20,000 bases of DNA from an uncultured virus (IMG/VR IMGVR_UViG_3300015371_000023) (IMGVR_UViG_3300015371_000023), one strand, 5' to 3'. Shown: positions 5,785-19,823, counted from the stretch's first letter. Program-made: numbers and translations. Notes: generated from the sequence alone by a model not told the origin.

Positions 5785-5915
5785 TCGGCGTGGAGGTTCG
5801 AGGCGTCTACGACGGCGTCCTCTACTGGATGTGCGAAGCGTGCGGCCTGAGGTACCACCGATTCCCCGAGGGGCACTGGCTCCGCCCGCGAGCTGAAAGG
5901 CACATCGACGAATGA
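5745..5915 (+). CDS. Small zinc-ribbon protein
   Basis: RBS GAGGAGG then GTG; CPGC...GVYDGVLYWMCEACG. Confidence 0.7.
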   Translation: MDPHCPGCESGDVIGVEVRGVYDGVLYWMCEACGLRYHRFPEGHWLRPRAERHIDE

Positions 5916-6216: not shown

Positions 6217-6220
6217 CACA

Positions 6221-6256
6221 GCGAACCCCCCGGGGAAGGGGGGCCGGGGGGTTCGC
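6221..6256. promoter_or_regulatory. Perfect 13-bp inverted repeat (terminator/attenuator or translational hairpin)
   Basis: GCGAACCCCCCGG-10nt-CCGGGGGGTTCGC abutting ATG 6257. Confidence 0.5.
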
Positions 6257-7033
6257 ATGAAGGGGATTATCGGCAGCCAGCCAATGAACCATTTCGGAGC
6301 CTACCCTACGGAGGACGAAATGGACCACCGGTGCCGCCGAGGACAGTACTGTGACAACCGCGAAACAGTCGACGGCGCGGTGGTGGGCCGCGCCATCCAC
6401 GCCGAACACGGCTTCTGCGACGCCTGCACCCGGCAGGGGGAGCGCGCCGTCCACGACCTACCCCAGGACTACGTCCGGCTCAACCTCATCCTCGGGAAGG
6501 GCCGCACCGTCGGCGGCGAACCGGTCCGAATGACCAAAGAACTCCCGGTACCCATCCGGCTCCACATCGAAGCCCTGCAACGGAACATGGTCGACGAGAC
6601 CGACGCGTGGGCGCACAGCTTGTCCCGCGTCCTCAACGTCGACTGGCAGGCTGGCGGCACCCGGCCGAGCTGGCGCCTCGATCGGGGATGCCGGCTCATC
6701 TGCGGTGCACTGACCGCGTTCCTTTCCCTCCGCGACGAGAAGCACATCATCTGGGAATACGGCCACCGCTACGTTGCCGCGCGCGACGGCCTCGACGGCG
6801 GCCTGAAGTTCATGTCGCTCAGCCACAAAGCCCAGCTCTTCCTCGGGCAAACGAAGCTCATCCACCGACTCCCGGTGCCGTGCCCCCGCTGCGACGCGAT
6901 GGACCTCGTGCGCGAAGACGGCAGCGACATCATCGAGTGCCGTGACTGCACCAAGAAGTACACATGGGACGAGTACCAGCACCTCTGCCTGATCCTCGTC
7001 GACCGCGAAGAGAAGGGCCTGAACGTCGCATGA
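6257..7033 (+). CDS. Zn-finger phage protein, possible late-transcription regulator (start uncertain)
   Basis: CRRGQYC...FCDAC and C-terminal PCPRC...IECRDC; near the end of the replication operon. Confidence 0.65.
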   Translation: MKGIIGSQPMNHFGAYPTEDEMDHRCRRGQYCDNRETVDGAVVGRAIHAEHGFCDACTRQGERAVHDLPQDYVRLNLILGKGRTVGGEPVRMTKELPVPIRLHIEALQRNMVDETDAWAHSLSRVLNVDWQAGGTRPSWRLDRGCRLICGALTAFLSLRDEKHIIWEYGHRYVAARDGLDGGLKFMSLSHKAQLFLGQTKLIHRLPVPCPRCDAMDLVREDGSDIIECRDCTKKYTWDEYQHLCLILVDREEKGLNVA

Positions 7034-10628: not shown

Positions 10629-10704
10629 TGGTACCGCCTGCGGGACTCGAACCCGCGACCTGACCCCTATAAAAGGCGCGCTCTGCCGACTGAGCTAAGG
10701 CGGC
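10629..10704 (-). tRNA. tRNA, anticodon UAU (Ile/AUA), CCA encoded
   Basis: GCCGCCT TA GCTC AGTCGGCA GAGC G CGCCT TTTATAG GGGTC AGGTC GCGGG TTCGAGT CCCGC AGGCGGT A CCA; 76 nt with canonical D and T arms and a weak anticodon stem. Confidence 0.85.
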
Positions 10705-11226: not shown

Positions 11227-11730
11227 TCAGCCAGCCCGGCGATGCACACCGGGCTGGGCGTAGATGACTGCTTCCAGCTCGGCGAGCCGGGACGCCAGGC
11301 CGGCCAGCTCGGCCAGCTCGGCGACCCGGGATTCCAGAATCCTGATTTTGGCCTGCGCTACCCGGAGTTCGCGGTCCCGCGCCGCTTCCCTCGTCTCGGG
11401 AGTTGTCGCGGGTGGTTGCCACTTCTTCGGCTGAACCTTGCGGGTCTCCGGCTCCGGAAGGTCCTGCGGGTCGTCCGTGAACGAGTACGTGCCATCGAAA
11501 AGGCCGGGCAGCCAACGTGCGTCGAACCCGAGGGCTACGGATACGCTGGCCAACATCTTCGCGTCTGGCACGGCACCGGTCCGGTAGATTAGCTTGCTTC
11601 GCAGGGCCGAAGTTTCAAGCCCGACCGTCTGAGCCAGTCTTTCCTGAGTCATGCCTCGCAGCTTCAAGCACTCTCGCACGTACTCGGCTACTGCCTTCGC
11701 GCGGCGATCCCGCTGACACCTGCTCGTCAT
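11227..11730 (-). CDS. XRE-family HTH regulator with coiled-coil C-terminus
   Basis: VRECLKLRGMTQERLAQTVGL...PDAKMLASVSVALGFDARWL. Confidence 0.8.
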   Translation of the reverse strand: MTSRCQRDRRAKAVAEYVRECLKLRGMTQERLAQTVGLETSALRSKLIYRTGAVPDAKMLASVSVALGFDARWLPGLFDGTYSFTDDPQDLPEPETRKVQPKKWQPPATTPETREAARDRELRVAQAKIRILESRVAELAELAGLASRLAELEAVIYAQPGVHRRAG

Positions 11731-12309: not shown

Positions 12310-13017
12310 CTACTCGACCGTGTCACCGTCCGTCTCGGTGCCCATCGTCCCGCGCCGGCCACCCGGGGTCCAGAGCCCGGCCGGCCACACCACCGCCGCC
12401 AGCGGCAGGTCCGCGCAGTAGTCGTACGCGTCGTCCTCGCACGGCGACGGCGTCCCCGTGTCCACCGCCACCGGGGGCGACGCGATGACCTCGGCGTCGC
12501 CCGGCCGGGACGGGTTCGCGCACACCCTGTACTCGTCCTGCCGCCACAACACCAGGTCGCCCTCGCCGGTGACGTCGGCGGTGCCGAGGTAGGTGTGGAC
12601 GTCGACCACGGCCCAGTGCTGGCTATCCGCCAACGGGGCGACGAACCGCCGGGAGTAGGAATCGCCGGCCTGGACATCCCCACCCACGTCACCCCCCGGC
12701 ATCACCTCCGGGTGGGGCTCGGTGAACACGGGTCTGTCTGCCGGGACCAGCACCTTCTGCGTGATGACCAGGTCAGCGGCAAGGCGGTTGTACGGCCCGT
12801 CCGCGGCCAGCTCGTCGGACTCCAGCACCCGGGCGGCCCACTCGTGCAGCGGCGCGAACTCCCCGCGCTCCAGCGCCACGCTGGCGGCCGCGCGGGTCAC
12901 CTCGACGTCGGTCGCGATGCCCTCGTCGGCGAGCGTGTCGGAAGCCCACAGTGTGAGCTCGGCCACGCCCAGCATGTAGCGCGCCCAGTCGGCCGCGTTC
13001 CAGTCGGCGGTGCTCAT
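12310..13017 (-). CDS. Acidic hypothetical protein
   Basis: RBS GAGAGGA; GC3-rich; roughly 40 D/E against about 14 K/R by manual count. Confidence 0.75.
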   Translation of the reverse strand: MSTADWNAADWARYMLGVAELTLWASDTLADEGIATDVEVTRAAASVALERGEFAPLHEWAARVLESDELAADGPYNRLAADLVITQKVLVPADRPVFTEPHPEVMPGGDVGGDVQAGDSYSRRFVAPLADSQHWAVVDVHTYLGTADVTGEGDLVLWRQDEYRVCANPSRPGDAEVIASPPVAVDTGTPSPCEDDAYDYCADLPLAAVVWPAGLWTPGGRRGTMGTETDGDTVE

Positions 13018-13046
13018 GGTCGGTTCCTCTCGGTTGGTGGGTTCGG

Positions 13047-13104
13047 CCGTGTGGCCGCGCCCGGGGCCACCGCGTGCACGGTGGCCGCGAGCGTGATCAC
13101 GCGG
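13047..13104 (-). ncRNA. Intergenic structured repeat, copy A (divergent)
   Basis: 26-nt imperfect inverted repeat starting (+) GGCCGTGTGG like the other copies. Confidence 0.55.
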
Positions 13105-13387
13105 ACTTCTTGAACGCTTCGGCGTACTCGCTGCGGAACTGATCGCAGAAGCAGACGAGGCACAGCTCCTCCGGCTTCACCCCGGCGAGCAGCAGCCGCC
13201 GGCGGGTTCCGGGGTCTTCGTCCAGCCGTGATCCCACTGGCAGCGTGCTGACCGGGTAGAGCGCTTGAAACTTGCGGAGGCACAGCAGCGCCCGGCCCTG
13301 CGTGTACGCGAAATGCACCTTCCGCGTGGTGTTCCGCGCGAGGAACATCCGTCCCGCCACCGGGGCCGGGAATTCCTGGCCGCTCAT
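13097..13387 (-). CDS. Hypothetical protein with H/C...CxxC motif
   Basis: MSGQEF...KVH...LLC...LCLVCF; ATGA coupling. Confidence 0.65.
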   Translation of the reverse strand: MSGQEFPAPVAGRMFLARNTTRKVHFAYTQGRALLCLRKFQALYPVSTLPVGSRLDEDPGTRRRLLLAGVKPEELCLVCFCDQFRSEYAEAFKKSA

Positions 13388-13758
13388 TGCGACACCACGC
13401 CGTCGGCCTTCCGGGTGGCACGGGCTTTTCTCGCAAAGTTGTCGTCGACGTCTTCGCGGATGCACTTTGCCAAAGCCGCGATGTGCACGTCGGCTCCGCG
13501 CTCTGCTTCTCCGTGAGACAGGCCGTGTACGTCGGTGCCGATCGCGATGGCTGCTGCCTTCATGCCGTCGAGCTGCAGGAGTGCGCGGTATCGGCCCTCT
13601 ACGTGCGGGACGTACATCTGATCGGTTGTTGTCGTCTGACTTGTCAGCGTCTGGTGCAGGTTGCCAGCGAGCCGGATCACGGCGGCGTACGACGCCCCGT
13701 GCTTTTCGGTCAGCTCGGCGGCGTACGCATTGGTCTTGTGGAAGTCCTTCGATTCCAT
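13384..13758 (-). CDS. Hypothetical protein
   Basis: RBS GAGG, helical-looking ORF. Confidence 0.7.
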   Translation of the reverse strand: MESKDFHKTNAYAAELTEKHGASYAAVIRLAGNLHQTLTSQTTTTDQMYVPHVEGRYRALLQLDGMKAAAIAIGTDVHGLSHGEAERGADVHIAALAKCIREDVDDNFARKARATRKADGVVSQ

Positions 13759-13779
13759 GCCTCATCCCTTCTCGGTTGG

Positions 13780-13855
13780 CCGTGTAGCCACGCCCGCGCC
13801 TGTTCGGTGTTCTGTCATGCCAGAACACCGAGCAGGCGCGAATGGGGTTACACGG
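13780..13855 (-). ncRNA. Intergenic structured repeat, copy B
   Basis: (+) CCGTGT AGCCA...20-bp stem...ACACGG. Confidence 0.65.
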
Positions 13856-13856
13856 A

Positions 13857-14117
13857 CTAGCTGACGACCCGGGCCCTACTTCGAGTCGCCGTCCACAGGT
13901 AGAAGTCGCGGTGCCCCGTCTTCCCGGCGTGCTCGTGCTGCCAGGCGTAGACCCCTTCCGCGACGCCGTCCACTTCCCGTTCCCAGGCGGACGACTCCGG
14001 GCAACCGCGACAGGTGCTCCGCGCAACGGACACGTGCGCCTCGTCGTCGGCGACCCCCGGCAGGATGCCCGGCACCGTGCCCCTCAGCCGCTTACGCGGG
14101 GTGCTGTTCCCTGTCAT
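13857..14117 (-). CDS. Small CxxC...HxxxxxH putative Zn-binding protein
   Basis: RBS GAAGGGAG; CRGC...WQHEHAGKTGHRDF. Confidence 0.7.
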   Translation of the reverse strand: MTGNSTPRKRLRGTVPGILPGVADDEAHVSVARSTCRGCPESSAWEREVDGVAEGVYAWQHEHAGKTGHRDFYLWTATRSRARVVS

Positions 14118-14135
14118 GCTTCTCCCTTCCGTTGA

Positions 14136-14197
14136 CCGTGCGGTCACGGCGCCGGCACGGGCCACTGTGGCCCGTGCCCCGCCGATGTCACGCGCGG
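14136..14197 (-). ncRNA. Intergenic structured repeat, copy C
   Basis: (+) CCGTGC GGTCA CGGCG...hairpin...CGCCG ATGTCAC GCGCGG. Confidence 0.7.
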
Positions 14198-14211
14198 GTT
14201 GGCGTGCGGGC

Positions 14212-14862
14212 TCAGAACACGGACGGGAGCCAGCCGTCCGTCCCGTTCTGATTGCGGATCGGCATGAGCCACGCGCGGTAGTCCGGACCGATGCGGATGT
14301 GCGCCGGGCGGTTGCCGGTCTCGCCCGCGAACATCTGCACGTACTCCTTGCGTCGCTTGCCGACCTTCGCGAAGTCCGCCAGGAACGCCGCGTTGAACAT
14401 GACGTGCGTTGCGGAGTCGGGCAGGGAGTCGACGGCGATGCGCGGGAGCATGTCCCCGAGGTCGTTGGAGGACTTCGGGCGCAGCTTGACGGCCAGCGTC
14501 ACCCCGAGGCCGGCGAATTCCGCGGTCATCTCCCCGGTGTTCACGGTGACCGTGACCGTCAGGGCCTGCCGGAACGTCTTCTCCAGGTTCGCGACGTCCT
14601 CCGCACCGATGGTCACGGCGTGGGGCAGCTCTCCGCCGTCCACGGCCGCGTGTGCGGCGCGGTACCGGTCGGAGGACCAGCCGTGAAGCCGCCCACCCTC
14701 GGTGTGCAGGCGAACGACCGTGAACTGTTCCAGGGCGCCTCGGCCCGTGTCGGCGGTAAGCGCCAAGTCGGCGAGCATCCCGACAAGCGCGCCCTTGCCG
14801 TTCGCCGTGAACGCGGTCACGGTGCCGGTTTCGGTGCTCGTCGTTTCCATCATGGCAGTCAT
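14212..14862 (-). CDS. DNA polymerase III beta-clamp-like protein (about two domains, 216 aa)
   Basis: FTVVRL...RLHGWSSDRYRAA resembles the DnaN ATDxxRLA motif; VMFNAAFLADF and YRAWLMPIR resemble the DnaN C-terminal FNxxYLxD...YLLMPVR. Confidence 0.65.
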   Translation of the reverse strand: MTAMMETTSTETGTVTAFTANGKGALVGMLADLALTADTGRGALEQFTVVRLHTEGGRLHGWSSDRYRAAHAAVDGGELPHAVTIGAEDVANLEKTFRQALTVTVTVNTGEMTAEFAGLGVTLAVKLRPKSSNDLGDMLPRIAVDSLPDSATHVMFNAAFLADFAKVGKRRKEYVQMFAGETGNRPAHIRIGPDYRAWLMPIRNQNGTDGWLPSVF

Positions 14863-14891
14863 GGTGAATCCCTTCGTCACGTTGGGGTTGG

Positions 14892-14948
14892 CCGTGCAGC
14901 CATGGCGCGCGGGCCGCCCGAAGGCGGCCCGCCACCAAGTGCGCACGG
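14892..14948 (-). ncRNA. Intergenic structured repeat, copy D
   Basis: RNA: CCGUGC GCACU UGGUG GCGGGCCGCC UUCG GGCGGCCCGC G CGCCA UGGCU GCACGG. Confidence 0.75.
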
Positions 14949-15968
14949 TCAGGCGTCGGCGAGCACCCGGTCGAGCGTCTTCACGGTTTCCAGGTCCAGC
15001 ACGTCGAACTTGCCGAGCACGGCGCTGGACATGTTCCGTTCGGCGCGCGAGGCACCCCGCACCGTGCCTTCGTGGTGCACGTAGGTGTTGACGGCCTGGA
15101 GCACGCCGTACGCGGTGCCCTTCCACGGCTCGACGCGGTTGTCGCTGTTCCAGAGCCGGGACAGCGCGGCGCGCTTGTTCGCCGCGGTGGTCTGCTTGGT
15201 TTTGCTGTCCGCGTCCGTCGTAGGCACGTGGACGTTGAGGAACTTCGACCATTCGCGCGGGGTGACCTCGATTTCGCACAGGGCCTTGACCTGCGCTGCG
15301 AAGTCCTCCGTGACGGTGTGCATGATGGCGAGTGCATCCCGTGCTTCGGCAAGCTTGAGCTTGCTGTTTCGGGAGTGCTTGATCTTGATCGCCTGGCCGT
15401 TCTCCGAGAGCCCGGCCGCCATCGTGTTGTCACACACGACGTTCGTCACGACGCGCTTGTACGTCGTCGCGATGCTCCCGTCGTGACTCGTGCAGGCCAG
15501 CAGGTTCGGGCGGAACTCGACACCCTCCGGGGTGCGGATCGTGTCGGGAACCTCGACGCTCACCCACGCCTGTGCGCCGTTCTTGAGCAGGCCGGCGGAG
15601 CCGATGCCCAACCCGTCGTCGAGGATGTTCCCGACCTGGGTAACCAGCCAGTCGCGATACTGGTGGATCTCGTATCCGTCCGCGAAGTACCCGAAGATGT
15701 CGCCCGTGTCGACTCTGCCGACGGGGAAGCGCTTGGTGTCCTCGCGGCTGGTGACGCCGTTCTCGGTGATCCACGTGGCCTTGGCGGTGCCCTTCGCGGC
15801 GCTCCAGTAGAACAGCCGGGAGAGCACGTCTTCCACGGGCACGGCGCCCGGGTAGTGGTTGGACTGCTCACCCTGGTCCGCGGCGCGGTAGTGCCACGCG
15901 TTCCCGCGTTTGGCGGTGTACCCGATGAGGGTGTTGTTGTTCAGCCACAGCTTGGTTTCCTTGGACAT
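14949..15968 (-). CDS. DUF932 family phage/plasmid protein
   Basis: AWH...YEIHQY...SAGLLKNGAQAW...LLACTSHDGS...VVCDNT...KIKHSRNS...GTAYGVLQAVNTYVHH. Confidence 0.85.
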   Translation of the reverse strand: MSKETKLWLNNNTLIGYTAKRGNAWHYRAADQGEQSNHYPGAVPVEDVLSRLFYWSAAKGTAKATWITENGVTSREDTKRFPVGRVDTGDIFGYFADGYEIHQYRDWLVTQVGNILDDGLGIGSAGLLKNGAQAWVSVEVPDTIRTPEGVEFRPNLLACTSHDGSIATTYKRVVTNVVCDNTMAAGLSENGQAIKIKHSRNSKLKLAEARDALAIMHTVTEDFAAQVKALCEIEVTPREWSKFLNVHVPTTDADSKTKQTTAANKRAALSRLWNSDNRVEPWKGTAYGVLQAVNTYVHHEGTVRGASRAERNMSSAVLGKFDVLDLETVKTLDRVLADA

Positions 15969-16004
15969 TTCTGCCTCTTTCTCTTGTGTGCCCGCATGGT
16001 TTGG

Positions 16005-16062
16005 CCGTGCGGTGACCGCGCAGGAACGTCCGGAGGGGACGTTCCCCACGGATAGCGCACGG
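16005..16062 (-). ncRNA. Intergenic structured repeat, copy E
   Basis: (+) CCGTGC GGTGA CCGCG...GGAACGTCC/GGACGTTCC...CACGG ATAGC GCACGG. Confidence 0.75.
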
Positions 16063-16079
16063 GCGGCCAGGTGCCCGCT

Positions 16080-16538
16080 CTACAGCTGGTCTCCGCCGTC
16101 CCACTCGCCCTTGGTGATCTTGAGGACGCACGTGCGTTCCGTCTTGGGACGCGCGATGGGTTTCGAGCTGTCCACGCGGAACGCGGCGACCCCTTCGGAC
16201 TTCGGGTCCGGCCACAGGTGGCCGATTCGCTCGCCGTCGCGGAACACGTGGACGGTGCCACTCAGTTCGTTCCGTTTCAGGGAGTACACCGGCCCCAGGT
16301 TGGCCCCGTCCGGGTCCACCGCGTAGGTGTCGACGTCCGACCACAACGGGGTGTCGGCGCCGACGTCTTCGGGGCGCACGTTCACCCATCGGCCGGACGT
16401 CCCGTACCGATACAGGGTGAACACGTGATCCCCGGCTTCGGTGAAAGCGTCCACCCGGTCCGCGCTCTGTTCGTCGTATGCGGGCGAGTTGCCGTCAATC
16501 TCCGCCCACCACTGCATAACCAGTTCAACCACTCGCAT
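16080..16538 (-). CDS. Hypothetical protein
   Basis: RBS GAAGGGG; GC3-rich ORF bounded by repeats E and F. Confidence 0.75.
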   Translation of the reverse strand: MRVVELVMQWWAEIDGNSPAYDEQSADRVDAFTEAGDHVFTLYRYGTSGRWVNVRPEDVGADTPLWSDVDTYAVDPDGANLGPVYSLKRNELSGTVHVFRDGERIGHLWPDPKSEGVAAFRVDSSKPIARPKTERTCVLKITKGEWDGGDQL

Positions 16539-16565
16539 TGGTGTTCCCCTTCCGTTGAGCTAGAC

Positions 16566-16616
16566 CTAGCGGTCACGGCGTGCGCGCACCCCCATGCGCG
16601 CCACCGAAAGCGCTAG
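16566..16616 (-). ncRNA. Intergenic structured repeat, copy F
   Basis: (+) CTAGC GGTCA CGGCG...GCGCGCA/TGCGCGC CACCG AAAGC GCTAG. Confidence 0.75.
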
Positions 16617-16618
16617 CA

Positions 16619-16879
16619 CTACTGCCAAGAACCGTTCGGCATCTTCGTTTTGACGATCACGCCGTCGGACGCGGGCAAGTGCAGCCCGTTCGCCGCCTCG
16701 CGGTTCATCTCCCCGATGCGGCGCACGGCCACGGGGAGGCACCGGGAGCACGCGCTCACGTTGACGCCGGACCTGAACGGCTCGACACCGATTTCGGGGT
16801 TCCCGGGGTGCTGGATCTCCCGGCGCGACTGCACCCAGAACAGGGCACGCCGCGTGCACCTTTCCGTGACTTCACACAC
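16619..16879 (-). CDS. Small Cys-rich hypothetical protein
   Basis: RBS AAAGGAG, GTG start; CEVTERC...ACSRC. Confidence 0.65.
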   Translation of the reverse strand: MCEVTERCTRRALFWVQSRREIQHPGNPEIGVEPFRSGVNVSACSRCLPVAVRRIGEMNREAANGLHLPASDGVIVKTKMPNGSWQ

Positions 16880-16899
16880 GGTTCTCTCCTTTCGTTTGG

Positions 16900-16950
16900 C
16901 CTAGCAGCCATGGCGCACGCGCGGTTGCCCGCGCGTCACCAAAGCGGCTA
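16900..16950 (-). ncRNA. Intergenic structured repeat, copy G
   Basis: (+) CCTAGC AGCCA TGGCG C ACGCGCGG TTGC CCGCGCGT CACCA AAGCG GCTA; the loop reads GCAA on the minus strand. Confidence 0.75.
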
Positions 16951-16952
16951 CG

Positions 16953-17444
16953 TCAGTAGCGCGGGTGCGACGGCTGCTGGCCGTAGAAGTGGAACCAGAA
17001 CGAGCCGCGTGCCATGTCGCGCCAGCACTCGTCTTTGAAGTGCCCGTAGCGGTTCTCAAGCACGTTCAGTGCCTCCCGCGGGTGCCGTTCGACCGTGTAC
17101 GCGGCAACCGCGCATGCCTCGAACCAGCACAGGCCCAGCCGGTACCCGAGGTCCCGCAGCGCGGCGAACTTCTCCGCGCCGTAGGCGGTCGCGTCCTGCC
17201 GGGTGCGCCCGTTCACCAGCGTTTCGGTGACCGGGGTGTCGCCCACCCACGGGAGCCGGGCCCAGCCGTCGGGCCCGTAGACCTCGTATGCGGCGGGGTT
17301 GATCCGTGCCGCGTATGCCTGCCCCTTGCTCGGGCCGTCGAGTGCTTCCAGCGTCCACGAGTCGGGCGACGTGTTGGCGTGCCGCACGTGGTACCGCCGG
17401 TCCGGGCTTCCCATGTGCCGGATGACGCGGTCGGTGATGTTCAT
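16953..17444 (-). CDS. Hypothetical protein (MNITDRVIRH...)
   Basis: RBS GGAGAG, GC3-rich. Confidence 0.7.
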   Translation of the reverse strand: MNITDRVIRHMGSPDRRYHVRHANTSPDSWTLEALDGPSKGQAYAARINPAAYEVYGPDGWARLPWVGDTPVTETLVNGRTRQDATAYGAEKFAALRDLGYRLGLCWFEACAVAAYTVERHPREALNVLENRYGHFKDECWRDMARGSFWFHFYGQQPSHPRY

Positions 17445-17455
17445 TTCCACTCTCC

Positions 17456-17554
17456 CTAGTGCGTTGCCGCGTACTGGATTGCCGCCGAGCCCGCCAACAG
17501 GACAAGCACGGTGATCGCCCAGGCGATGATCCGAACCGCGAAGCTTTCGATCAT
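17456..17554 (-). CDS. 32-aa single-TM peptide (not in the ORF track)
   Basis: MIESFAVRIIAWAITVLVLLAGSAAIQYAATH; RBS AAAGGGA. Confidence 0.6.
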   Translation of the reverse strand: MIESFAVRIIAWAITVLVLLAGSAAIQYAATH

Positions 17555-17572
17555 TTGCGTTCCCTTTCTGTC

Positions 17573-17625
17573 CACAACGGACACAGCAGGGGACGGACAC
17601 GCCGTCCCCCACTGAGAGCGTTGTG
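17573..17625 (-). ncRNA. Intergenic structured repeat, copy H
   Basis: (+) CACAAC GGACA CAGCA GGGGACGG/CCGTCCCC CACTG AGAGC GTTGTG. Confidence 0.7.
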
Positions 17626-17626
17626 T

Positions 17627-17812
17627 TCAGTTCACCGACTCGAACGGGTGCTCCGCCGGGTCGAACGGGCCCAGATCGGTGACCACGGCGCCGTCCCAGT
17701 TGCATCGGGCACGCCACATCGCGTGACCCGGGTTCAGTCCCTCGATCCCGTCAACGAAAGAGTCGTCGGCGAACTCGACGCGGACGCTCCGTGCGCAGGG
17801 GTAACCGGACAT
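17627..17812 (-). CDS. Small hypothetical protein
   Basis: RBS GAGGAGG; MSGYPCARSVRVEFADDS... Confidence 0.7.
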   Translation of the reverse strand: MSGYPCARSVRVEFADDSFVDGIEGLNPGHAMWRARCNWDGAVVTDLGPFDPAEHPFESVN

Positions 17813-17834
17813 TGTCTGCCTCCTCTTATGCGTC

Positions 17835-17890
17835 CCCAACGGACACGGCACGGCACGGACGTAGCCCGTGCTGCACCGTTGTTCATTGGG
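17835..17890 (-). ncRNA. Intergenic structured repeat, copy I
   Basis: (+) CCCAAC GGACA CGGCA CGGCACGG/CCGTGCTG CACCG TTGTTC ATTGGG. Confidence 0.65.
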
Positions 17891-19361: not shown

Positions 19362-19823
19362 TTACTTGGAGTCGGGCCAGCCGTCGCGCACCCAGCGGCG
19401 GATCGAGAGCTCGCAGCCGCTGGTCAGGGCCAGGCCGTTGGCCTTTCCGACGTGGGTCTGTTTCCCGCCGCACCCGCAGGAGCAGCGGCTTCGGTTCCGC
19501 AGCCGCGAAGGGAGCGGCTCGACGTGGCGGGGGTCGCTGACCTTGCCTGTCTGGCCACAGCCGCCGGCCTGCTCCGCCTTGGCCACGGCGATGTCCACGA
19601 GTGCCTGCGCGACGAGCAGATCCAGGGCCGGCACACCCAGTGGCCCTTCGAGTCGGACGGCGACGCGGGCGGACATCCGGACTCCGCCTCGGACGATTTG
19701 ACTGAGGTGCTTCTCGGAGATGCCGGCCTTGCGCGCCACGTACTTCTGGCACATCCACCGGGGGCCGTCGGCGATGGCCTGGCGGATGATCTCGCCCGGC
19801 CCCCGGAAGGTCTCACTGGTCAC
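19362..19823 (-). CDS. HigA-like XRE HTH fused to a Cys-rich domain
   Basis: PGEIIRQAI...QKYVARKAGISEKHLSQIVRGGVRMSARVAVRLE; C-terminal RCSCGCGG..THVG.ANG...GC. Confidence 0.7.
   Translation of the reverse strand: MTSETFRGPGEIIRQAIADGPRWMCQKYVARKAGISEKHLSQIVRGGVRMSARVAVRLEGPLGVPALDLLVAQALVDIAVAKAEQAGGCGQTGKVSDPRHVEPLPSRLRNRSRCSCGCGGKQTHVGKANGLALTSGCELSIRRWVRDGWPDSK

What the first reader, a model, noticed from the sequence alone, without database searches (positions are those of the whole stretch)
13047..17890. Array of about nine covarying structured RNA elements punctuating a cassette of phage genes
Seen: almost every non-coupled gene boundary from 13.0 to 17.9 kb holds a 50-75 nt element between the upstream stop and the downstream RBS (starts 13047, 13780, 14136, 14892, 16005, 16566, 16900, 17573, 17835). 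On the mRNA (-) strand the consensus is P1 (5-6 bp), a 5x5 internal loop (approx. GCWHU / UGDCY), P2 (YGGUG/YGCCR), a small bulge and a variable P3 hairpin. P1 covaries (+ strand CCGTGC/GCACGG, CTAGC/GCTAG, CACAAC/GTTGTG, CCGTGT/ACACGG) and so does P2 (TGGCG/CACCA, CGGCG/CACCG, CCGCG/CACGG, CAGCA/CACTG). P2 has a C.A mismatch on + that is a G.U pair on - in six copies. Copy D has a C(UUCG)G loop and copy G a GCAA loop on -. No U-tracts follow. Inference: a functional RNA motif I do not recognise. It could be a processing site that cuts the polycistron into single-gene mRNAs (like T7 early RNase III sites), a binding site for a phage protein controlling termination or translation, or a hotspot for gene-cassette shuffling.
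Basis: partly seen in the sequence, partly recalled or inferred. Interest (0 to 1): 0.92.

Follow-up and report, generated by a model that had tools for sequence, protein, structure and literature searches.

The report
Intergenic RNA hairpin family in actinophage
A temperate virus of soil actinobacteria carries six clear and three decayed copies of an undescribed 60-base RNA hairpin between its small accessory genes, and related prophages keep the same hairpin, so it is probably a signal on the long messenger RNA whose exact job is still untested.

Summary
All nine gene boundaries named carry a hairpin on the coding (-) strand. Six of them (C, D, E, F, G, H) belong to one family. A covariance model built only from relatives in other genomes finds them at 27-60 bits. 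A, B and I are decayed copies at noise level (15-20 bits). Rfam has no match.

The family recurs in prophage-like loci of Amycolatopsis, Prauserella, Actinophytocola, Actinokineospora and one Streptomyces. All matches of 36 bits or more lie on the strand taken as sense, usually flanking a DUF932 gene.

Pairing covaries strongly (0 of 500 shuffles reach it). The U.G wobbles are one-sided: 130 G.U cells against 15 A.C cells. So the sense RNA is what folds. The "5x5 internal loop" is really half paired.

No U-tract follows any copy. The upstream stop codon usually abuts or lies inside P1.

Function is inferred, not shown. My best guess (about 0.35) is a double-strand-RNase processing and stabilising site that punctuates the operon mRNA. 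Rivals are a U-less attenuator, an operator for an RNA-binding regulator, and a recombination linker. Homology blocks among relatives do break at the element edges.

It is a new motif of a known kind.

The parts
17831..17881 (-). copy I, degenerate hairpin between the 108-aa and 61-aa ORFs
   Evidence: R1 17.7, R2 24.0 and R3 20.0 bits. Its 3' half aligns to copy H.
17568..17625 (-). copy H, canonical; P1 CACAAC/GUUGUG; starts 1 nt after the TGA stop
   Evidence: R2 45.0 and R3 27.0 bits; fold.
16895..16952 (-). copy G, canonical; GCAA loop; starts directly after the TGA stop
   Evidence: R2 62.9 and R3 59.7 bits; fold.
16560..16617 (-). copy F, canonical; P1 CUAGC/GCUAG; starts 1-2 nt after the TAG stop
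   Evidence: R2 62.2 and R3 52.4 bits; fold.
16000..16062 (-). copy E, canonical; lies upstream of the DUF932 gene, the same position as the upstream element of relatives
   Evidence: R2 54.6 and R3 34.4 bits; flanks compared.
14949..15968 (-). DUF932 / TIGR03299 gene flanked by copies E and D; the only gene shared with most relatives
   Evidence: Pfam PF06067 at 1.2e-48; TIGR03299 at 260.7 bits; tblastn.
14887..14948 (-). copy D, canonical; C(UUCG)G loop; starts directly after the TGA stop of DUF932
   Evidence: R2 55.1 and R3 44.7 bits; fold.
14131..14195 (-). copy C, canonical but with a shortened 5' loop and C-G in place of the U.G pair
   Evidence: R2 49.1 and R3 33.2 bits; pair table.
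13775..13855 (-). copy B, degenerate: P1 and the 3' loop are kept, the interior is replaced by a long perfect stem
   Evidence: R1 16.9 and R3 15.2 bits. It shares a 10-nt exact stretch and the aligned 3' half with D. Fold z = -7.45.
13041..13081 (-). copy A, degenerate and shortened
   Evidence: R1 16.0 and R3 16.4 bits; 3' half aligns.

Best explanation
The elements are a real, previously undescribed family of intercistronic RNA hairpins, 55-65 nt long, made from the sense strand of a polycistronic accessory-gene operon of a temperate siphophage-like virus.

Each is one long irregular helix of about 25 bp. From the base upward it has: P1 (variable in sequence, covarying); a small G-C / Y-R / U.G helix flanked by single mismatches; P2 with a nearly invariant U.G pair; a one-base bulge; and a variable P3.

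Most likely mechanism (inferred, not shown): the folded helix is recognised on the mRNA by a double-strand-specific endoribonuclease of the RNase III type. Cutting there separates the operon transcript into units that are stable and translated on their own, as at the intercistronic RNase III sites of phage T7. The hairpin remnants would cap the new ends, and the stable helix would insulate each RBS from the upstream cistron.

A by-product is that the shared core marks, and may help create, the junctions at which single-gene modules are exchanged between phages.
For: Shown:
- Location on the sense strand between stop and RBS at nine boundaries.
- Structure supported by covariation in the window, in 44 distinct members (94% of cells paired, 14 of 20 pairs changed on both sides, 0 of 500 shuffles reach it, slid controls 26-49% paired) and in relatives alone.
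- Strand specificity. G.U/U.G cells number 130 against 15 A.C/C.A cells, or 39 against 14 outside the three conserved wobble pairs. The sense fold is more stable in 35 of 41 members, mean -38.5 against -33.0 kcal/mol. All 43 matches of 36 bits or more lie on the strand taken as sense; the antisense of the same sites scores 17-29 bits.
- Conservation of the core across genera while P1 and P3 change.
- No U-tract and no sigma-70-like promoter at any element.
- No phage protein family co-occurs with the element, which fits a host enzyme.
Against: There are no RNA data of any kind: no cleavage, no transcript ends, no expression.

RNase III is not known to need such a conserved primary sequence. 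Yet the core (5' side YUUCGGUG, 3' side CGCCGUGRCCGC) is kept across genera, which points rather to a sequence-specific partner.

In most relatives only the two boundaries of one gene (DUF932) carry the element, not every boundary. That is odd for a general punctuation mark.

In L002 the upstream copy follows a canonical U-tract terminator, so there it sits at the start of a unit rather than between cistrons.
Confidence: 0.35

Rival explanations
1. The hairpin is a factor-independent terminator or attenuator without a U-tract. It stops or pauses RNA polymerase after each cistron, keeping the accessory genes quiet unless transcription is made terminator-resistant.
For: The hairpins are strong and GC-rich, at -28 to -49 kcal/mol. 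Where an upstream ORF end was recognised, they start -5 to +19 nt from the stop codon, and within 7 nt in 22 of 24 cases; the 11 copies downstream of DUF932 among these stand for one lineage. A paper titled as reporting U-less terminators in the early region of actinophage phiC31 exists (Ingham 1995). I saw it only as an entry in the reference list of PMC3993855; the paper itself is not held.
Against: No U-tract follows. The title and abstract of PMC3993855 state that mycobacterial RNA polymerase requires a U-tract at intrinsic terminators. A plain terminator does not explain the conserved core or the invariant U.G pairs. The upstream copy in L002 lies just after a canonical terminator and before the gene it accompanies.
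Confidence: 0.2
2. The hairpin is an operator for a sequence-specific RNA-binding regulator, of host or phage, that sets translation of the downstream cistron or loads an antitermination factor. This would be the structured counterpart of the start-associated repeats of other actinophages.
For: The primary sequence of the core is conserved around wobble and mismatch positions, while the outer and apical stems vary freely. The element lies 18-36 nt upstream of start codons in the window. It travels with the 5' leader of DUF932 in relatives. Cluster K ESAS, and the EF and EG motifs of Microbacterium phages, are similar in placement, and their function is unknown (PMC3203893; PMC7302621; passages read).
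Against: No protein family apart from DUF932 is shared by most element-bearing lineages within about 6 kb: the next best is found in 6 of 14. Three genomes have the element but no DUF932 match with this query. The distance to the start codon varies from 13 to 80 nt after the match end. The copy downstream of DUF932 in L002 is not followed by a recognisable gene start.
Confidence: 0.2
3. The element's main role is at the DNA level. It is a portable linker, running from stop codon to RBS, whose shared core lets phages swap single-gene cassettes in register by short-homology recombination.
For: Among 15 Amycolatopsis and Prauserella loci (105 pairs), the homology block over DUF932 begins within 4 nt of the first base of the upstream element in 38 pairs, and 5-12 nt inside it in 11 pairs. 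In all 14 pairs with L002 it also ends within -7 to +19 nt of the end of the downstream element. Flanking genes differ between lineages while the elements stay.
Against: Those 49 pairs all involve only four loci (L002, L008, L014, L017), so they stand for about three or four junction events. The same pattern arises if the element simply belongs to the gene's transcript. A linker needs no structure, no covariation and no one-sided wobble pairs. The longest exact identity between any two window copies is 13 nt, which is short for homologous recombination.
Confidence: 0.1
4. The element is an attC-like single-stranded DNA recombination site of an integron-like cassette array.
For: The layout resembles, from my recall of folded attC sites, a basal helix, an unpaired spacer, a second helix with extrahelical bases and a variable tip. 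The copies are co-oriented and sit after promoterless-looking ORFs, and the stop codon often lies in the basal helix.
Against: The conservation is the wrong way round. The basal helix, where attC keeps its core sites, is the variable part here, and the inner part is conserved. The only recombinase in the record is a generic tyrosine integrase about 20 kb away. It scores 22.8 bits against a cut-off of 265 on the integron-integrase model. Most genomes hold only 1-4 copies.
Confidence: 0.03

Closest known systems
Intercistronic RNase III processing sites of phage T7 early mRNA
   Same: Several paralogous hairpins lie between cistrons of one phage operon, on the sense transcript. Each is an irregular helix of roughly two turns with an internal irregularity, and none has a U-tract. 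Internal loops in bacterial RNase III substrates are described in PMC3074117. The T7 details are from my own knowledge.
   Different: There is no sequence relation, and cleavage is untested. The core sequence here is conserved across host genera. P1 abuts or contains the upstream stop codon. In most relatives only one gene is flanked.
Extended start-associated sequences (ESAS/SAS) of Cluster K mycobacteriophages, and similar intergenic repeats of Microbacterium phage clusters EC, EF, EG, EI and Cluster O
   Same: Both are repeated, co-oriented motifs in short intergenic gaps among non-structural genes of actinophages. Both involve imperfect inverted repeats with a variable spacer just upstream of the RBS. 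Both are conserved even where flanking genes differ, and in both the function is unknown (PMC3203893; PMC7302621).
   Different: The 13-nt SAS consensus is not enriched in the window: 5 matches at up to 3 mismatches against 6.7 expected, and none at an element. The helix here is longer, with a conserved inner core and variable outer stem. Covariation and one-sided wobble pairs are demonstrated here; I saw no such analysis in the passages I read.
U-less ('I-shaped') intrinsic terminators, such as those reported from the phiC31 early region
   Same: Both are GC-rich hairpins after stop codons in an actinophage non-structural operon, with no poly-U tail.
   Different: Terminator activity is untested here. 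A conserved core sequence is not a terminator feature. The requirement for a U-tract shown for mycobacterial polymerase (PMC3993855, title and abstract) argues against this. I could not read the phiC31 paper.
Integron attC sites
   Same: Both are arrays of co-oriented, strand-specifically folding imperfect palindromes after ORFs, with a variable tip.
   Different: There is no integron integrase, and the conserved and variable parts are inverted relative to attC. The attC features are recalled, not tested against an attC model.
REP elements and other host intergenic palindromes
   Same: Both are intergenic imperfect palindromes close to stop codons.
   Different: The element is not a host repeat. 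There are 1-4 copies per 6-10 Mb genome, all at prophage-like loci. It was found in 10 of 151 genomes sampled from the family.

Membership tests
Any Rfam 15 family | match to a curated covariance model | tested here: not met
   There is no match at any element in the window at E up to 1, only a chance mir-2011 hit of 26.6 bits against a gathering score of 80 on the opposite strand of copy B. There is none at the elements of L006, L079 or L242.
T7-type RNase III processing site | intercistronic position on the sense transcript | tested here: met
T7-type RNase III processing site | irregular helix of about 20 bp or more with an internal loop or mismatches | tested here: met
   20 consensus pairs plus the variable P3 extension.
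T7-type RNase III processing site | cleavage by RNase III in vivo or in vitro | not testable with these tools
   No RNA run is listed.
Canonical intrinsic terminator | GC-rich hairpin followed at once by a U-tract | tested here: not met
   The hairpin is present. No terminator-like site of the scan coincides with an element. Counts of T in the tail are given.
U-less actinobacterial terminator | measured termination at a hairpin without a U-tract | not testable with these tools
   Only the anatomy fits; the primary paper is not held.
Cluster K SAS/ESAS | 13-nt SAS consensus at the RBS | tested here: not met
   5 matches at up to 3 mismatches against 6.7 expected by shuffling; none next to an element.
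Cluster K SAS/ESAS | pair of imperfect 17-bp inverted repeats with a 4-13 bp spacer just upstream of the SAS | tested here: inconclusive
   The general plan is the same (inverted repeat with variable middle, upstream of the RBS). The arm length, sequence and conserved part differ. The ESAS consensus was not available to me as text.
Integron attC | conserved core sites in the basal (R) helix | tested here: not met
   The basal helix P1 is the most variable part, with at least six different fully complementary versions. The attC consensus is recalled, not typed or modelled.
Integron attC | integron integrase beside the array | tested here: not met
   The only recombinase scores 22.8 bits against a 265-bit cut-off on TIGR02249 and lies about 20 kb away.
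REP / MITE-like host repeat | many copies spread over the host chromosome | tested here: not met
   1-4 matches in each of five whole genomes, all at the known loci. Only 150 first-look candidates per genome were scored.
dsDNA operator of a repressor (stoperator-like) | fixed-length site or fixed spacing of half-sites, readable on double-stranded DNA | tested here: not met
   The two conserved halves are separated by a variable P3 (A4 aligns it with gap columns and a long insertion in L072). The mismatches are one-sided, G.U 130 against A.C 15.

The most novel reading that the evidence does not exclude
The hairpin is a self-contained, portable 'stop-to-RBS' punctuation module with two linked roles. 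On the mRNA it is a processing or insulation signal that lets any gene dropped between two copies be expressed. On the DNA its conserved core is the junction at which actinophages exchange single-gene cassettes in register. That would make the array a functional analogue of an integron cassette array that needs no dedicated recombinase and is maintained by selection on RNA.
Probability: 0.12. Interest if true: 0.8.

Novelty: new member of a known kind. Interest (0 to 1): 0.6.

Why it matters
Repeated intergenic motifs are reported from many actinophage clusters, and in the two papers I read on them (PMC3203893, PMC7302621) their function is given as unknown.

This family gives unusually clean evidence that such a motif acts as folded sense-strand RNA. 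It also comes with a usable covariance model, a defined set of wobble and mismatch positions to mutate, and cultivable relatives (Amycolatopsis and Prauserella strains) in which to test it.

If it proves to be a processing or insulating site, it would be a natural part for operon engineering in high-GC actinomycetes. If the link to module boundaries holds, it bears on the old question of whether phage mosaicism uses conserved linker sequences.

Tried and rejected
- **RNA evidence.** No RNA holder is listed for the stretch. The four runs laid are DNA contigs. They show no credible joint at the elements; all joint sides were 21 nt.
- **Whole genome.** None is held for the window. The nearest record, G001, was used instead.
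- **Pattern scan of viral contigs** with the two core halves. It gave at least 118 stretches, but R2 found no true member in the 80 fetched, best 26 bits. The pattern is too weak for that collection.
- **Closer relatives** sought with three other window proteins in viral contigs. Results were none, none and one weak match. A metagenome scan with DUF932 gave the source contig (L246) and 48 others, of which 2 carry the element. No relative is close enough to see cassette turnover.
- **Phage and plasmid collections.** Only the DUF932 gene matches (13 and 3 records).
- **Earlier notes of this scan.** Nothing found.
- **Partner protein by co-occurrence.** None found.
- **DUF932.** No related solved structure by sequence. 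No functional study appears among the 12 of 13 papers listed, of which I read titles and abstract beginnings only.
- **tRNA-like minihelix / RNase P substrate.** I considered this because several copies are followed by CCA within 4 nt of P1. By eye, only about half of the 44 members show it, and the 13 upstream-type copies lack it, so I dropped the idea.
- **Recoding signal after the stop codon.** Rejected, because each element is followed by its own RBS and start.
- **Single-strand promoter or oriT-like site.** Rejected as too short and lacking promoter hexamers.


Full report
**What is there.** From about 19.8 kb down to 10.8 kb every plausible gene reads on the - strand. Between 17.9 and 13.0 kb there are nine spacers of 71-111 nt between a stop codon and the next RBS. 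The other two junctions in that stretch are a 13-nt gap and an ATGA overlap. Each of the nine spacers folds into a hairpin on the - strand. Folding z-scores against dinucleotide shuffles run from -1.6 (E) to -7.5 (B) for the whole spacers.

**How many copies are real.** A covariance model seeded on six copies (A1 and R1) scores those six at 55-68 bits. It scores I, B and A at 16-18 bits, the same as unrelated places in the window. Because the six were seeds, I cross-validated. Model R3 was built from 39 matches in other genomes only, although those matches were themselves found through models seeded on the window. It finds G, F, D, E, C and H at 59.7, 52.4, 44.7, 34.4, 33.2 and 27.0 bits. It finds I, A and B at 20.0, 16.4 and 15.2 bits, among antisense matches and an intragenic match at 12430-12482 of 20.5 bits. 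The 3' halves of A, B and I align without gaps to those of the good copies. B shares P1 and the 3' side with D but has a different interior. So there are six members and three decayed ones.

**Structure and strand.**
- In the window alone, 94% of pair cells are standard pairs and 10 of 17 pairs change on both sides. None of 500 column shuffles reaches the covariation score, and sliding the partner by 1-3 columns drops pairing to 22-52%.
Again 0 of 500 shuffles reach any measure. The relatives alone give the same picture. These alignments were fitted to the model and the sequences are related, so the shuffle counts are not probabilities. The slid controls, and at least six different fully complementary versions of P1, do not depend on that.
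- The "5x5 loop" is in fact a small helix flanked by single mismatches. Pair 8-63 is G-C in 29 of 44. Pair 9-62 is C-G in 19, U-A in 18 and U-G in 4. Pair 10-61 is U.G in 34 and C-G in 6.
- P2 holds a U.G pair in 42 of 44 members, and its neighbour is G-C in 24 and G.U in 15.
- Wobble pairs are one-sided: 130 G.U/U.G cells against 15 A.C/C.A cells, or 39 against 14 outside the three conserved wobble positions.
- The sense strand folds more stably in 35 of 41 members. Many of these are orthologues and so are not independent.
- The two conserved halves are separated by a P3 of varying length, so they can only come together in a folded single strand.

I conclude that the sense-strand transcript is the selected form. 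The same strand as single-stranded DNA is less likely but cannot be excluded by sequence alone.

**Context.**
- The window is not in a held genome, but it shares all sampled words with a 41-kb linear viral record, G001.
- The rest of G001 encodes a tyrosine integrase, an excisionase-like protein, an endolysin, minor tail proteins and a head protein. The + strand of the window encodes ParB-like, replication-initiation, DnaC-like, SSB and RusA-like proteins. So this is a temperate siphophage-like virus, and "phage genes" is right.
- The genes between the elements are small and mostly without any family. The exceptions are a DUF932/TIGR03299 protein (14949-15968), a borderline DUF7848 match, a weak SPDY match and a weak clamp-like match.
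- In all of G001 the model finds only these six copies plus I.

**Relatives.** I used the DUF932 protein as bait, which biases the sample towards that gene.
- 20 of 80 genome loci carry matches of 36 bits or more, against 0 of 9 viral loci and 2 of 48 metagenome loci.
- All 43 such matches, and all 52, lie on the strand taken as sense: that of DUF932, or of the flanking ORFs at loci without DUF932 (checked). The antisense of the same sites scores 17-29 bits.
- The hosts named in the records are Amycolatopsis, Prauserella, Actinokineospora, Actinophytocola and one Streptomyces.
- In most loci there are exactly two copies, one 24-37 nt before the DUF932 start and one 6-7 nt after its stop. These are the positions of E and D in the window.
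- An Actinophytocola contig (L079) has four copies and two truncated ones.
- Five whole genomes hold 1-4 matches each, all at these loci. Only 150 first-look candidates per genome were scored.
- In a sample of 151 genomes of the family, 10 have a match at E up to 1e-4. Two of those (L234, L237) lie inside ORFs and are probably false. In a sample of the class, only 1 of 150 other genomes has a match.
- The element is not tied to DUF932. Three genomes have it without a DUF932 match, and in G069 two copies lie 5-6 kb from the gene with a third just upstream of it.
- Apart from DUF932, almost none of the window's proteins has a homologue at any of these loci.
- Rfam has nothing at the elements. 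The phage and plasmid collections match only the DUF932 gene.

**Position relative to translation signals.**
- In the window the element starts 0-2 nt after the stop in D, G, H, F and B, and 14-17 nt after it in E, C, A and I.
- Over 41 members my crude rule recognised an upstream ORF end in 24. The distance is -5 to +19 nt, and 7 nt or less in 22 of them. The 11 copies downstream of DUF932 count as one lineage.
- In L079, L233 and L231 the stop codon lies inside P1.
- The next start codon lies 13-80 nt beyond the end of the match.
- No U-tract follows. The terminator and promoter scan places nothing at an element: 7 terminator-like sites against 5.3 expected, and 0 promoter-like sites.

**Module boundaries.**
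- Among 15 Amycolatopsis and Prauserella loci, all 105 pairs share a block over DUF932. Its upstream end falls within 4 nt of the first base of the upstream element in 38 pairs, 5-12 nt inside it in 11 pairs, 5-80 nt upstream in 24 pairs and further upstream in 32 pairs.
- Its downstream end falls within -7 to +19 nt of the end of the downstream element in the 14 pairs that involve L002, and at least 630 nt further on in the other 91.
- The 49 "at the edge" pairs all involve L002, L008, L014 or L017, so they stand for about three or four events.
- The printed flanks show unrelated sequence right up to the element. In L002 a canonical U-tract terminator sits immediately before it.
- So the conserved unit is element, leader, DUF932, element. 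This fits either exchange at the elements or an element that simply belongs to the gene's transcript.
- The longest exact identity between two window copies is 13 nt. That argues against efficient homologous recombination within the array.

**What it most likely does.**
- Shown: a sense-strand, covarying, sequence-conserved irregular helix of about 25 bp, placed between cistrons, without terminator or promoter signals, confined to prophage-like loci of one bacterial family.
- Inferred: it acts on the mRNA.
- I put about 0.85 on "cis-acting RNA element". Within that, I rank first recognition by a double-strand-specific RNase (RNase III type) that cuts the operon RNA into separately stable units, as at the T7 early sites (0.35).
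- The helix length, the internal irregularities and the lack of any co-occurring phage protein fit this reading. The strong conservation of the core sequence fits it poorly.
- The rivals are a U-less attenuator (0.2), an operator for an RNA-binding regulator (0.2), a DNA-level recombination linker (0.1) and an attC-like site (0.03). The last fails on the integrase and on which part is conserved.

**Comparison with what is known.**
- Repeated, co-oriented intergenic motifs among non-structural genes are described for Cluster K (SAS/ESAS) and for several Microbacterium phage clusters, with unknown function (passages read). The SAS consensus is not enriched here, and the present helix differs in size and in which part is conserved.
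- My searches for later work found nothing relevant. These were 'ESAS, phage, RNAseq', 'actinobacteriophage, conserved, stem-loop, intergenic, repeat' and 'DUF932'. They cover only the held library.
- I therefore file the element as a new family of a known kind (phage intercistronic structured repeats), not as a member of any described family.

Noticed in passing
window 10629-10704 (-): A phage-borne tRNA whose anticodon is ambiguous. ARAGORN reads TTA and calls it tRNA-Stop. The Rfam alignment register (56.9 bits) would put UAU in the anticodon, which is my reading of the alignment. Either anticodon stem has a mismatch. So it is either a suppressor or a tRNA for a codon that is rare at high GC; this is unresolved.
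   Followed up: partly
L079 2687-2735 and 3497-3550 (+): Two truncated copies of the element. They have the stop codon, the 5' strand of P1, and P2 and P3, but no 3' loop and no 3' strand of P1. In the second copy the RBS follows P2 directly. This suggests P1 is dispensable in some contexts.
   Followed up: no
L002 about 5865-5905 (+): A canonical hairpin plus U-tract, terminator-like and readable on both strands, lies immediately before the upstream element of DUF932. This leaves little room for a promoter other than within or upstream of that region.
   Followed up: no
L079 6715-6774 (-): A partial match to the Y RNA-like family YrlA: 36.3 bits against a gathering score of 69, E 1.8e-4, model positions 24-84 of 114.
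   Followed up: no
window 16039: One contig of run X5 carries a 6-nt insertion in the apical (P3) part of copy E. This agrees with P3 being free to vary. The depth is low (2.4), so it may come from another organism.
   Followed up: no
window 19362-19823 (-): The first ORF of the - strand block has an HTH_3 domain and a sub-threshold HigA-antitoxin match of 28.2 bits against a 47.7-bit cut-off. A second repressor-like HTH protein lies at 11227-11730.
   Followed up: no
window 6218-6336 (-): A weak match to the alphaproteobacterial sRNA ar14 (32.5 bits against a gathering score of 58.8), with CCUCC-rich loops, in the gap between + strand genes. It is probably chance.
   Followed up: no
window 12430-12482 (-): An intragenic match to the element model (20.5 bits with R3, 16.1 with R1) inside the 235-aa ORF. 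It is either chance or a remnant.
   Followed up: no
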